From Eledone cirrhosa (Eukaryota), in contig OZ024754.1 in the NCBI GenBank assembly GCA_964016885.1, positions 36,766,001 through 36,830,000 of the forward strand: a stretch of DNA of 64,000 nucleotides, given 5' to 3'. The translations under genes and the position numbers were made by a program. The stretch's first letter is position 1; every line of letters begins with the position of its first letter. Positions 44,501 through 50,785 of this stretch are shown here, piece after piece. Under the pieces are notes generated by a model. It was not told the DNA's origin. It worked only from the letters and a program-made list of their open reading frames with translations, and searched no databases.

Positions 44501-47500
44501 TACTAACTACAGCTATACCACCATATTACTAACTACAGCTATACCACCATCTTACTAACTACAGCTATACCACCATCTTACTAACTACAGCTATACCACC
44601 ATCTTACTAACTACAGCTATACCACCATCTTACTAACTACAGCTATACCACCATCTTACTAACTACAGCTATACCACCATCTTACTAACTACAGCTATAC
44701 CACCATCTTACTACTAACTACAGCTATACCACCATCTTACTAACTACAGCTATACCACCATATTACTAACTACAGCTATACCACCATCTTACTAACTACA
44801 GCTATACCACCATCTTACTAACTACAGCTATACCACCATATTACTAACTACTACAACTATACCACCATCTTACTAACTACTACAGCTATACCACCATATT
44901 ACTAACTACAGCTATACCACCATATTACTAACTACTACAGCTATACCACCATCTTACTAACTACTACAGCTATACCACCATATTACTAACTACAGCTATA
45001 CCACCATATTACTAACTACTACAGCTATACCACCATCTTACTAACTACAGCTATACCACCATCTTACTAACTAGTACAGCTATACCACCATTTACTAACT
45101 ACAGCTATACCACCATCTTATTAACTACTACAGCTATACCACCATATTACTAACTACTACAGCTATACCACCATCTTACTAACTACAGCTATACCACCAT
45201 ATTACTAACTACTACAGCTATACCACCATCTTACTAACTACAGCTATACCACCATCTTACTAACTACATCTATACCACCATATTACTAACTACTACAGCT
45301 ATACCACCATCTTACTAACTACGGCTATACCACCATATTACTAACTACTACAGCTATACCACCATCTTACTAACTACAGCTATACCACCATATTACTAAC
45401 TACTACAGCTATACTACCATCTTACTAACTACAGCTATACCACCATATTACTAACTACTACAGCTATACCACCATCTTACTAACTACTACAGCTATACCA
45501 CCATCTTACTAACTACAGCTATACCACCATCTTACTAACTACAGCTATACCACCATATTACTAACTACTACAGCTATACTACCATATTACTAACTACTAC
45601 AGCTATACCACCATCTTACTAACTACTACAGCTATACCACCATCTTACTAACTACAGCTATACCACCATCTTACTAACTACAGCTATACCACCATCTTAC
45701 TAACTACTACAGCTATACCACCATCTTACTAACTACAGCTATACCACCATCTTACTAACTACTACAGCTATACCACCATATTACTAACTACAGCTATACG
45801 ACCATATTACTAACTACTACAGCTATACCACCATATTACTAACTACTACAGCTATACCACTATATTACTAACTACTACAGCTATACCACCATATTACTAA
45901 CTACTACAGCTATACCACTATATTACTAACTACTACAGCTATACCACCATATTACTAACTACTACAGCTATACCACCATTTTACTAACTACTACAACTAT
46001 ATCACCATATTACTAATTACTACAGCTATACTACCATCTTACTAACTACAACGATACCACCATCTTACTAACTACAACTATACCACCATATTACTAACTA
46101 CAGCTATACCACCATATTACTAACTACTACAGATATACCACCATATTACTAACTACTACAGCTATACCACCATCTTACTAACTACTACAGCTATACCACC
46201 ATATTACTAACTACAACTATACCACCATCTTACTAACTACTACAACTATACCACCATATTACTAACTACTACAGCTATACCACTATATTACTAACTACAA
46301 CTATACCACCATCTTACTAACTACTACAGCGATACTACCATATTACTAACTACAGCTATACCACCATATTACTAACTACAGCTATACCACCATATTACTA
46401 ACTACTACAGCTATACCACCATCTTACTAACTACAGCTATACCACCATCTTACTAACTACTACAGCTATACCACCATATTACTAACTACAGCTATACCAC
46501 CATATTACTAACTACTACAGCTATACCACCATCTTACTAACTACAGCTATACCACCATATTACTAACTACTACAGCTATACCACCATCTTACTAACTACA
46601 GCTATACCACCATCTTACTAACTACAGCTATACCACCATATTACTAACTACAGCTATACCACCATATTACTAACTACTACAACTATACCCCCATTTTACT
46701 AACTACAGCTATACCACCATCTTACTAACTACAGCTATACCACCATCTTACTAACTACAGCTATACCACCATATTACTAACTACTACAGCTATACCACCA
46801 TATTACTAACTACAACTATACCACCATCTTACTAACTACAGCTATACCACCATATTACTAACTACAACTATACCACCATCTTACTAACTACAACTATACC
46901 ACCATCTTACTAACTACAGCTATACCACCATCTTACTAACTACTACAGCTATACCACCATCTTACTAACTACTACAGCTATACCACCATATTACTAACTA
47001 CTACAGCTATACCACCATATTACTAACTACAACTATACCACCATCTTACTAACTACAGCTATACCACCATATTACTAACTACTACAGCTATACTACCATA
47101 TTACTAACTACAGCTATACCACCATATTACTAACTTCAGCTATACCACCATATTACTAACTACTACAGCTATACCACCATCTTACTAACTACTACAGCTA
47201 TACCACCATATTACTAACTACTACAGCTATACCACCATCTTACTACTAACTACAGCTATACCACCATCTTACTACTAACTACAACTATACCACCATCTTA
47301 CTACTAACTACAGCTATACCACCATCTTACTACTAACTACAGCTATACCACCATCTTACTAACTACAACTATACCACCATCTTACTACTAACTACAGCTA
47401 TACCACCATCTTACTAACTACAACTATACCACCATCTTACTACTAACTACAACTATACCACCATCTTACTACTAACTACAGCTATACCACCATCTTACTA

Positions 47501-48033
47501 ACTACTACAGCTATACCACCATCTTACTACTAACTACAGCTATACCACCATCTTACTACTAACTACAGCTATACTACCATATTACTAACTACTACAGCTA
47601 TACCACCATCTTACTACTAACTACAGCTATACCACCATCTTACTAACTACAGCTATACCACCATCTTAGTAACTACAGCTATACCACCATCTTACTACTA
47701 ACTACAACTATACCACCATCTTACTAACTACAACTATACCACCATCTTACTAACTACAACTATACCCACCATCTTACTAACTACTACAGCTATACCACCA
47801 TCTTACTACTAACTACAGCTATACCACCATCTTACTACTAACTACAGCTATACCCCCATCTTACTACTAACTACAGCTATACCACCATCTTACTACTAAC
47901 TACAGCTATACCACCATCTTACTAACTACAACTATACCACCATCTTACTACTAACTACAGCTATACCACCATCTTACTAACTACAGCTATACCACCATCT
48001 TACTAACTACAGCTATACCACCATCTTACTAAC
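41586..48033. repeat. 6.4-kb minisatellite, 26-bp unit ctacagctataccaccat[c/a]ttactaa with +CTA 29-bp variants
   Basis: Seen directly; higher-order duplications visible. Confidence 0.98.
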
Positions 48034-48754: not shown

Positions 48755-48894
48755 TCATTTCCTGACGTAAACATTTGGACTTCCAGGAGGAGTACTTGTG
48801 GGCACACGACTGATCGATGATTTCCGTTTCAGTGACAGACGTTTGGCGGTGGACTTAACAAACGTCTCTGCAGACTCAAAGACAGAATCACTGC
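48755..48894 (-). CDS. Probable terminal coding exon: (G)SDSVFESAETFVKSTAKRLSLKRKSSISRVPTSTPPGSPNVYVRK*
   Basis: Strong acceptor tctcttttcatctctcttttcag, phase 1, 45 codons to TGA, protein-like composition in unique sequence. Confidence 0.75.
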
Positions 48895-49035
48895 CTGAAA
48901 AGAGAGATGAAAAGAGATATAAGCATGTGTATATGTATTTTTATATACATGTCTAGCATTATATATATATATATATATATATACAATATTAAATAATATT
49001 AAATAAATGGAAAACTATATTTATAAAACCATATC

Positions 49036-49101
49036 TATTTCATTATATATATTTCGGGGATATCATATTAACAATATGCTATGCCTTCATCAGACAAAAT
49101 A
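49036..49101 (-). ncRNA. Type I hammerhead ribozyme (mirror copy; sense to the candidate host gene)
   Basis: Reverse complement of 49279-49344. Confidence 0.7.
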
Positions 49102-49278
49102 CAATATAAACAGTTTTATAGATAAATATATTCGACATACCGTAATAAACATCAACTTCATTTGAAGAGGTTTACTCTAGCAGTGTAAACCTCTAACTGC
49201 TAGAGTAAACCTCTTCAAATGAAGTTGATGTTTATTACGGTATGTCGAATATATTTATCTATAAAACTGTTTATATTG

Positions 49279-49344
49279 TATTTTGTCTGATGAAGGCATA
49301 GCATATTGTTAATATGATATCCCCGAAATATATATAATGAAATA
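49279..49344 (+). ncRNA. Type I hammerhead ribozyme (family A)
   Basis: tattttgt-CTGATGA-aggcatag catatt gtt aatatg atatcccc-GAAA-t atat a-TA-atgaaata. Confidence 0.7.
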
Positions 49345-49472
49345 GATATGGTTTTATAAATATAGTTTTCCATTTATTTAATATTGTAAATATACTCCAA
49401 ATATTTGTCGAGTGCTTTTATATCAGTTATAAATATTTACTAGTTGTAACCCAACAATTTTAAATATAACTT

Positions 49473-49503
<31 letters not shown>

Positions 49504-49599
49504 ACATAGTAAAGCCTACTACAGCCAGTAGGCATCTCTAACAAAATACACCCCCGTCTCACCACCCCCACCCCATCCACACCACCCCCTCCTATGTAA

Positions 49600-49898
49600 A
49601 GTTATGTTGGTGCCACACCATCCAGGCCGAAACAAATGAGATCGTGTAGGTGTCACGACAAAAAAACACACAGTGTCCACGCTGTAAATGTGGCCGTGTA
49701 GGCAACACGGTAAAAACCTCCCAGACCCACACTGTAAATGTGGTTGGTGTTAGGAAGGGCATCCAACTGTAGAAAACCTGCCAGACAGTCCTATGCGAGC
49801 AAGACAATCACTCTTGCCTCAAGTGGGAATACCCCCGTCCAAACCCATGCAAGCGTGGAACACGGACGTTAAACGTTGATGATGATGATGATGATGAT
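49600..49898 (+). mobile_element. SINE with ggaagggcatcc central block and (GAT)n tail
   Basis: gttggtgttaggaagggcatcc...cccatgcaagcgtggaacacggacgttaaac(gat)n; inverted copy at 50516-50758. Confidence 0.8.
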
Positions 49899-49980
49899 AT
49901 ATATATATATATATAAACAATGAATTTATAACATGAAGTTCACATGAAGATATGTCACTATCTTTACACCAATTATTGTT

Positions 49981-50037
49981 CTTTATCTGACGAAAGCGTA
50001 CTTAAATATTAGTACCCTTGAAATACGTATAATAAAA
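49981..50037 (+). ncRNA. Type I hammerhead ribozyme (family A)
   Basis: ctttat-CTGACGA-aagc gtact taaatatt agtac cctt-GAAA-t acgt a-TA-ataaaa. Confidence 0.7.
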
Positions 50038-50082
50038 TAAATATGGTTTTATAAAGATATTTTCCATTTATTAATATTATTG

Positions 50083-50473: not shown

Positions 50474-50515
<42 letters not shown>

Positions 50516-50516
<1 letters not shown>

Positions 50517-50758
50517 CATCATCGTTTAACGTCCATTTTCCACGCTAGCATGGGTCTGGACGGGAATTGTCCCACTTGAGGCAAGATTGGTTGTCTTGCT
50601 CAGGACTGTCTGGCGGGTTTTCTACGGCTGGATGCCCTTCCTAACACCAACCACGTTTACAGTGTGGACTGGGAGGTTTTTACCGTGTTACCTACACGGC
50701 CACATTACAGCGTGGACACTGTGTTTTTTTTGTCGTGACAATCTACACGACCTCATTT
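50516..50758 (-). mobile_element. SINE, inverted copy of 49634-49898
   Basis: High similarity by eye along ~240 bp. Confidence 0.85.
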
Positions 50759-50785
50759 ATTTAGGACTATATATATATATATATG

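What the first reader, a model, noticed from the sequence alone, without database searches (positions are those of the whole stretch)
48995..49385. 190-bp perfect hairpin carrying a hammerhead 100 nt upstream of a terminal-exon acceptor
Seen: arms are exact reverse complements and each carries the ribozyme, arranged so that on either strand the antisense arm is transcribed before the ribozyme arm. It ends ~100 nt before the acceptor at 48895. Inference: the pre-mRNA would form 190 bp of dsRNA that masks the sense ribozyme (49036-49101), a self-neutralising insertion. It is also an ideal ADAR or Dicer substrate next to a splice site; coleoids are known for extensive A-to-I editing. Perfect identity implies recent origin, arm homogenisation or an assembly artefact.
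Basis: partly seen in the sequence, partly recalled or inferred. Interest (0 to 1): 0.75.

Follow-up and report, generated by a model that had tools for sequence, protein, structure and literature searches.

The report
Penelope retroelement stub with mirrored ends
The perfect hairpin is real but ordinary: it is a young insertion of two back-to-back end pieces of a jumping gene whose ends occur hundreds of times in this genome, and the two pieces likely stop where the element's own RNA begins.

Summary
The 190-bp perfect palindrome and both hammerheads are real. It is not a special device. Each arm is the end repeat (pLTR) of a young Hydra-clade Penelope-like retroelement: 4,011-bp tandem unit, intact 737-aa RT/endonuclease frame, inserted in (TA)n with a 93-nt tail on one arm only. 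An exact arm 31-mer occurs 483 times; the first 100 matches include 36 head-to-head pairs and no tail-to-tail pair. 'Antisense arm first' is therefore automatic, and this minimal hammerhead is not predicted to fold alone. Added here: 47 of 98 arms stop at -2..+13 of one site, TTTTC|A, also seen in a second family. I read this as reverse-transcriptase run-off at the element's transcription start (inferred; no RNA data). One related insertion carries 71 identical A>G changes in both arms, so both arms came from one edited RNA. The terminal exon is unverified. This scan already reported the same palindrome type, two-ended priming and fossilised editing elsewhere in this genome.

The parts
48755..48894 (-). 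Candidate host exon (45 codons to a stop); gene not identified, terminal status unverified
   Evidence: single copy; no homologue
48895..48915 (-). Pyrimidine tract and AG, acceptor-like; last intron base would be 48895
   Evidence: sequence
48960..48983 (.). Left (TA)12, target microsatellite
   Evidence: same flank in most copies
48984..48994 (-). 'Short' 3' end of the left arm with a 10-nt tandem duplication (ATTTAATATT)
   Evidence: L005 against other copies
48995..49184 (-). Left arm: pLTR positions +1..+190 of the Penelope-like element, untailed
49036..49101 (-). Minimal type I hammerhead, sense to the candidate host transcript; predicted cut between 49044 and 49043
49185..49195 (+). 11-nt junction filler; 10 nt copy pLTR +10..+19 (templated insertion); junction unique in the genome
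49196..49385 (+). Right arm: pLTR +1..+190; +1 is the A of TTTTC|ACTG in long copies (inferred transcription start); RGWYV match at +28..+32
49279..49344 (+). Minimal type I hammerhead of the right arm; predicted cut after 49336
49386..49478 (+). 93-nt one-sided 'tail' ending at the 'long' 3' end; in full elements it leads to the ATG at +329
49479..49504 (.). Right (TA)13, target microsatellite

Best explanation
The palindrome is one young insertion of a Hydra-clade Penelope-like retroelement made of two head-to-head copies of its hammerhead-bearing end repeat in a TA microsatellite, and the two arms were likely reverse-transcribed from the two cut ends of the target and likely ran off the 5' end of the element's RNA. 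Shown: family, architecture, two fixed outer ends (one per side), an inner-end hotspot, templated filler at the join. Inferred steps: (1) the element is transcribed from an internal promoter starting at TC|A(+1), 328 nt before the ATG; (2) the RT-endonuclease opens (TA)n; (3) one target end primes at about +193, the other at about +284, using the copy of these sites nearest the RNA 5' end; (4) both cDNAs reach +1 or are trimmed by a few bases; (5) the two 3' ends are joined by microhomology or snap-back synthesis, here leaving 11 nt of filler. The hammerhead is carried along uncut. The position beside an acceptor-like site is most likely chance. If transcribed through, the locus would be an ADAR substrate, as a side effect. 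Odds: identity as a Penelope-like stub about 0.95; two separately primed arms about 0.8; run-off at the transcription start about 0.65.
For: Arm plus tail match the repeat before an intact 737-aa frame at 98.6% in a 4,011-bp tandem. The protein has RWR, DKT, YRDD, CxCX5C, IVY-YVG, CxxC and CxH, the Hydra traits in PMC8557442 section 11; the same motifs are visible by eye in the Hydra-1_Obim protein of its supplement. 483 exact copies of an arm 31-mer; 36 head-to-head pairs, 29 under 400 nt, 0 tail-to-tail, 1 direct among the 100 listed. 33 of 34 mapped pairs have one tailed and one untailed arm. 47 of 98 arms end at -2..+13, 23 at -2..+2; the per-base end rate is 22 times that of +14..+124 and 21 times that of -100..-3. 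Genome-wide, 439 exact matches just inside the site against 220 across it. A second family in the window has its hotspot at TTTTC|ATATG without a pyrimidine tract (by eye 8 of 17 distinct arms shown start there). TCACT or CCACT persists at +1 in diverged subfamilies (L156, L160, L173, L177). 0 of 30 copies begin at the hammerhead cut. In 12 of 33 pairs the untailed arm reaches at least 10 nt further 5' than the tailed arm, so neither arm can be a fold-back copy of the other. L184: 71 A>G changes shared by both arms, pattern found only there. Literature: internal promoter in the Penelope pLTR (PMC2377424), two RT start sites defining the tail and extension of both strands (PMC11167929).
Against: No RNA, cap or 5' RACE data: the transcription start is inferred only from DNA ends. 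The DPE-like match at +28..+32 is absent in the second family. The family 2 sample was chosen by full match to the arm and is biased. Paired arms are not independent, so the p-values are overstated. The 98 arms come from two contigs and one sequence variant; 2 of the 100 listed matches were not mapped. End mapping underestimates reach in diverged subfamilies, and one of the 12 'untailed further' pairs (L105) is a tie by eye. In L184 the tailed arm is the longer one, so fold-back of one cDNA also explains the shared edits there. Pfam and PDB gave no significant hit for the protein; the clade call rests on motifs, with no tree. No spanning read for this locus.
Confidence: 0.9

Rival explanations
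1. Same element, but the inner hotspot is an RT stall or template-switch site (the small AGAGTAAACCTCT hairpin and CTAG palindrome at +5..+19, or the pyrimidine tract just upstream), not the RNA 5' end; the second arm arises by fold-back of the first cDNA, close to the self-priming idea of PMC3846280.
For: Junctions show 1-6 nt overlaps and fillers copied from +1..+20. A long CT-rich tract ends exactly at -1. Shared edits in L184 fit fold-back.
Against: Ends pile up at +1/+2 and almost none fall in the tract upstream (6 ends in -100..-3). Family 2 has the same TTTTC|A edge without a tract. Pairs whose untailed arm is longer cannot come from simple fold-back.
Confidence: 0.25
2. One reading: a self-neutralising insertion, tolerated or kept because the antisense arm masks the sense ribozyme near a splice acceptor, possibly tuning splicing through dsRNA or editing.
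For: The hairpin would bury the ribozyme. The family's RNA is hyper-edited at least once. PMC5625713 (passages) reports very high hyper-editing and a high density of near-perfect dsRNA in octopus.
Against: The order is forced by head-to-head geometry at all such loci. The monomer is not predicted to fold. The arms are identical to many other copies, so there is no sign of long retention. The exon is unverified.
Confidence: 0.05
3. Assembly or long-read fold-back artefact.
For: Perfect identity of the arms; no spanning read or contig was seen.
Against: The two outer ends differ in the family-typical way (tail on one side only, 33 of 34 pairs), both lie in (TA)n, the outer flanks are not mirrored, the filler is templated, and 11 of 34 other pairs show differences between arms.
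Confidence: 0.03

Closest known systems
Hydra clade of C-terminal EN+ Penelope-like elements, e.g. Hydra-1_Obim (Craig et al. 2021, PMC8557442; passages, section 11 and supplement look-ups seen)
   Same: Single RT + GIY-YIG frame, RWK-like and DKT motifs, CxCX5C linker, CxxC and CxH, hammerhead near the 3' end, (TA)n targets, inverted 5'-truncated copy, one-sided tail.
   Different: RWR instead of RWK; unit 4.0 kb (published Hydra mostly under 3 kb) owing to a long 3' region; tail about 90 nt against 30-40 nt in the paper; many intact 98-99% identical frames, so recently active.
[quoted passage not shown]
   Same: Type I, extra base between position 9 and 10.1, G10.1-C11.1, long helix II, short palindromic helix III; motifs 100-700 bp apart on opposite strands are mentioned there.
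   Different: Helix I here is 8 bp with two G-U pairs; activity not tested.
Poseidon PAc in vitro mechanism (Frangieh et al. 2024, PMC11167929; parts 1-2 of 4 read)
   Same: Two internal RT start sites bounding the tail, both target strands cut and extended, AT-rich targets, hammerhead cleavage not needed.
   Different: In the parts read it does not address where cDNAs end or how inverted arms are joined; start sites there lie in the ORF, here in the 5' leader.
Drosophila virilis Penelope promoter (Schostak et al. 2008, PMC2377424; sections 15, 18 and passages read) and Adineta Penelope structures (Arkhipova et al. 2013, PMC3846280; passages read)
   Same: Internal TATA-less promoter in the pLTR with initiator and DPE; an initiator-like TCACT noted in an Adineta pLTR; head-to-head inverted pLTRs with palindromic junctions.
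   Different: Those papers describe the inverted repeats as variable in size and propose self-priming; in the parts read they do not link the inner ends to the transcription start.
Animal non-LTR retrozymes (bioRxiv 10.64898/2026.07.22.740005; part 1 of 5 read)
   Same: Short, non-coding, type I hammerhead, related to pLTRs.
   Different: Retrozymes are head-to-tail tandem units; this is a head-to-head stub colinear with a coding element.

Membership tests
EN+ Penelope-like element | [quoted passage not shown] | tested here: met
   737-aa frame with YRDD and IVY..YVG; arm+tail 98.6% to the flanking repeat. Pfam gave no significant hit, so domains were called by motif and by eye against published Hydra proteins
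EN+ Penelope-like element | Tandem or partial-tandem units forming pLTRs; inverted truncated copy | tested here: met
   (4,011-bp period)
EN+ Penelope-like element | Tail on one end only | tested here: met
   33 of 34 pairs
Hydra clade | RWK and DKT motifs | tested here: met
   RIRWRAF (K to R) and SDKTN
Hydra clade | CxCX5C linker, CxxC and CxH; CCHH absent | tested here: met
   CNCRDRSKC, CDLC, CKH; no cysteine between IVY and YVG other than one in IVYNC, read by eye
Hydra clade | (TA)n insertion preference and canonical hammerhead | tested here: met
Hydra clade | Placement in the Hydra clade on an RT tree | not tested
   no reference sequences were loaded; motif comparison only
Minimal type I hammerhead | Core boxes, helix I and II pairing, G10.1-C11.1, palindromic helix III | tested here: met
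Minimal type I hammerhead | Self-cleavage (as a dimer or protein-assisted) | not testable with these tools
   monomer fold +0.5 kcal/mol against a minimum of -6.2
Non-LTR retrozyme | Head-to-tail tandem of short hammerhead units | tested here: not met
   arms are head-to-head and colinear with a coding element
MITE / DNA transposon | Fixed terminal inverted repeats around a constant interior | tested here: not met
   inner ends and fillers vary by locus; the outer ends differ from each other

The most novel reading that the evidence does not exclude
Short hammerhead palindromes are complete two-strand run-off copies of the first 190-280 nt of the Penelope-like mRNA, made by two RT molecules on one RNA. 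Their inner ends then map each family's transcription start from DNA alone, explain how pLTRs are regenerated and why only tandem copies yield full-length offspring, and seed the genome with back-to-back internal promoters. Here the left arm would point such a promoter at the candidate exon 300 nt away.
Probability: 0.45. Interest if true: 0.55.

Novelty: new member of a known kind. Interest (0 to 1): 0.27.

Why it matters
This locus is one of many and shows no sign of function. The family-level pattern bears on an open question named in PMC2377424 and PMC8557442: how Penelope-like elements make pLTRs and inverted ends. A sharp inner end at an initiator-like site gives a one-experiment test (5' RACE), and the copy with identical edits in both arms ties both arms to one RNA molecule. 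Such palindromes may also supply part of the abundant near-perfect dsRNA reported for octopus (PMC5625713, passages); that link is inference.

Tried and rejected
Rfam at gathering score and ARAGORN: nothing. Pfam and PDB with the element's protein: nothing significant. Host gene: word-seeded search, Atlas and full HMMER search gave no credible homologue; three heuristic exon or ORF scans of the window plus 50 kb beyond found no convincing upstream exon, but they can miss small exons. Sequencing runs: no RNA holder listed, which is no evidence on expression. Laying three contig sets of one sample and one RAD run showed no piece spanning the locus and no RAD coverage of the unique flank, so polymorphism is undecided; read support for the junction remains open. 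The edit distances and permutation were wrong (scoring error) and were redone: 15 of 25 pairs identical over 147 nt against 26% between loci, 0 of 20,000 permutations; the junction table is unaffected. Hammerhead cleavage as the source of 5' ends: rejected, 0 of 30. A shared ACTGC start in family 2: my first impression, rejected; its +1 is 14 nt further upstream. A conserved DPE: not met in family 2. ADAR neighbour preference in L184: weak (5' G edited 5 of 37, other neighbours 67 of 274). The two small hairpins behind the outer ends fold as earlier notes describe but are not better than shuffles (z about -0.9). Literature searches that showed no paper tying Penelope inner ends to the transcription start: (listings only for papers not named; open-access library only; subscription papers and unseen supplementary figures of the cited papers may cover it).

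Full report
Observation. The arms 48995-49184 and 49196-49385 are exact reverse complements with an 11-nt spacer. Each holds a minimal type I hammerhead (49036-49101 minus, 49279-49344 plus): 8-bp helix I, an unpaired A before G10.1-C11.1, long helix II, and a 2-bp helix III within AUAUAUAU. Rfam does not report it. The acceptor-like site ends at 48895 and opens a 45-codon frame in single-copy DNA. I could not show that this is a gene's last exon: no homologue, no convincing upstream exon, no canonical poly(A) signal down to 42000, no RNA run listed.

What it is. A DNA search of the own genome had 572 first-look candidates, scored 40 and listed 58 matches, 23 of them 100% identical over 190 nt including the two arms themselves. 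Long copies continue upstream into a 3' region and an RT-endonuclease frame. The protein search scored 98 of 79,658 candidates; all 98 were 98-100% identical without stops, and three sit in tandem at a 4,011-bp period. There the window's arm plus tail matches at 98.6% and precedes a 737-aa frame whose ATG is at +329. The protein has the traits that PMC8557442 section 11 lists for the Hydra clade, and the N-terminal motifs line up by eye with Hydra-1_Obim in that paper's supplement. The insertion here runs from 48984 to 49478 between (TA)12 and (TA)13, with a 93-nt tail on the right arm only.

How common the shape is. An exact 31-mer of the hammerhead occurs 483 times and a 29-mer just behind it 1,248 times. 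Of the first 100 listed matches, 72 form 36 head-to-head pairs (29 under 400 nt apart); none is tail-to-tail and one pair is direct. I mapped 98 of these 100 arms. Of 34 pairs with both arms mapped, 33 have one tailed and one untailed arm; 23 have no mismatch between arms in an ungapped comparison. The same window holds a second perfect 158-bp hammerhead palindrome of another family at 20445-20774. Inverted pLTRs, palindromic junctions, one-sided tails and TA targets are all published (PMC3846280; PMC8557442; opposite-strand hammerhead pairs in PMC4209133).

Mechanism, shown part. Outer ends fall at two fixed sites, about +193 and +284. Inner ends cluster: 47 of 98 at -2..+13 and 23 at -2..+2, where +1 is the first base of this window's arms; the per-base rate is 22 times that inside the arm and 21 times that in the 100 nt upstream (arms of a pair are not independent). 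Genome-wide counts halve across 16 nt, 439 to 220. No copy among 30 begins at the hammerhead cut, in line with PMC11167929, where uncut RNA is the substrate. Junctions carry short overlaps or fillers copied from nearby arm sequence; the filler here repeats +10..+19 and is unique in the assembly. In 12 of 33 pairs the untailed arm reaches at least 10 nt further 5' (one is a tie by eye), in 5 the tailed arm does, and 16 are ties. A pair of the first kind needs two separate primings. Arms of one insertion share variants more often than arms of different insertions (15 of 25 against 26%). In L184 both arms carry A>G changes in the element's sense: 72 and 71 of 82 substitutions each, 71 shared, with a pattern found only at that locus. 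Both arms there descend from one hyper-edited RNA, by two primings or by fold-back. It was the only such insertion among 128 arms screened.

Mechanism, inferred part. The hotspot sequence is TTTTC|ACTG. Family 2 has TTTTC|ATATG at its hotspot (biased sample), and diverged subfamilies keep TCACT or CCACT there. This resembles an initiator (TCA+1; consensus recalled, not from a call; PMC3846280 calls TCACT initiator-like). D. virilis Penelope has an internal promoter in its pLTR (PMC2377424). I therefore read the arms as cDNAs that began at the two start sites nearest the RNA 5' end and ran off it. An RGWYV match at +28..+32 fits a DPE (consensus recalled) in this family but not in family 2. The rival is a stall or fold-back site.

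The pre-mRNA hairpin would be very stable, and the family's RNA is edited at least once, so an ADAR substrate is plausible if the locus is transcribed. Masking of the ribozyme is a geometric by-product. The lone motif does not fold as a hammerhead in silico and single minimal motifs did not cleave in PMC4209133. Nothing points to selection at this locus.

Earlier notes of this scan (AI notes, read after I had stated my reading) already describe the same palindrome type, two-ended priming, twin hairpins and fossilised editing on other pieces of this genome. They are not independent support. The notes shown do not mention the inner-end hotspot at an initiator-like site, but I saw at most 8 notes per look-up out of more than 350 that fit.

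Verdict: real, a new member of a known kind, low interest as a locus (0.27). The run-off reading is the testable extra.

Noticed in passing
L184 = G000:C1:52534800-52539800: Family insertion with A>G hyper-editing fixed in DNA over about 2.6 kb of the long arm; 71 edited sites identical in both arms; pattern unique in the genome.
   Followed up: yes
window 20445-20774: Second perfect hammerhead palindrome (158-bp arms, 14-nt spacer, one-sided tail) of another family; the spacer is the first 14 nt of the right arm.
   Followed up: partly
window 49979-50078 (+) and 4930-5015 (-): Older single-arm relatives of the same pLTR with hammerhead cores, about 78% identical.
   Followed up: partly
window 12657(+), 21639(+), 24984(+), 26966(+), 53387(-): Further hammerhead-like motifs from a relaxed scan; no chance control was run.
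   Followed up: no
window about 41590-48030: 6.4-kb minisatellite of 26/29-nt units directly downstream of the candidate exon.
   Followed up: no
window 49624-49915 and 50487-50768: Inverted pair of a very high-copy SINE-like repeat (88% over 293 nt), a second potential dsRNA in the same candidate intron.
   Followed up: no
window 24093-24225 and 39447-39571: Two more exact inverted repeats (43 and 56 bp arms).
   Followed up: no
window 49386-49418 and L053 8586-8620 (-): Two similar small bulged hairpins just behind the short and long outer ends, as earlier notes describe; not more stable than shuffles.
   Followed up: partly
L053 6364-8574 (-): The element's protein has an asparagine-rich stretch between RT and endonuclease; N-rich inserts are described for Adineta Penelope elements (PMC3846280).
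   Followed up: no
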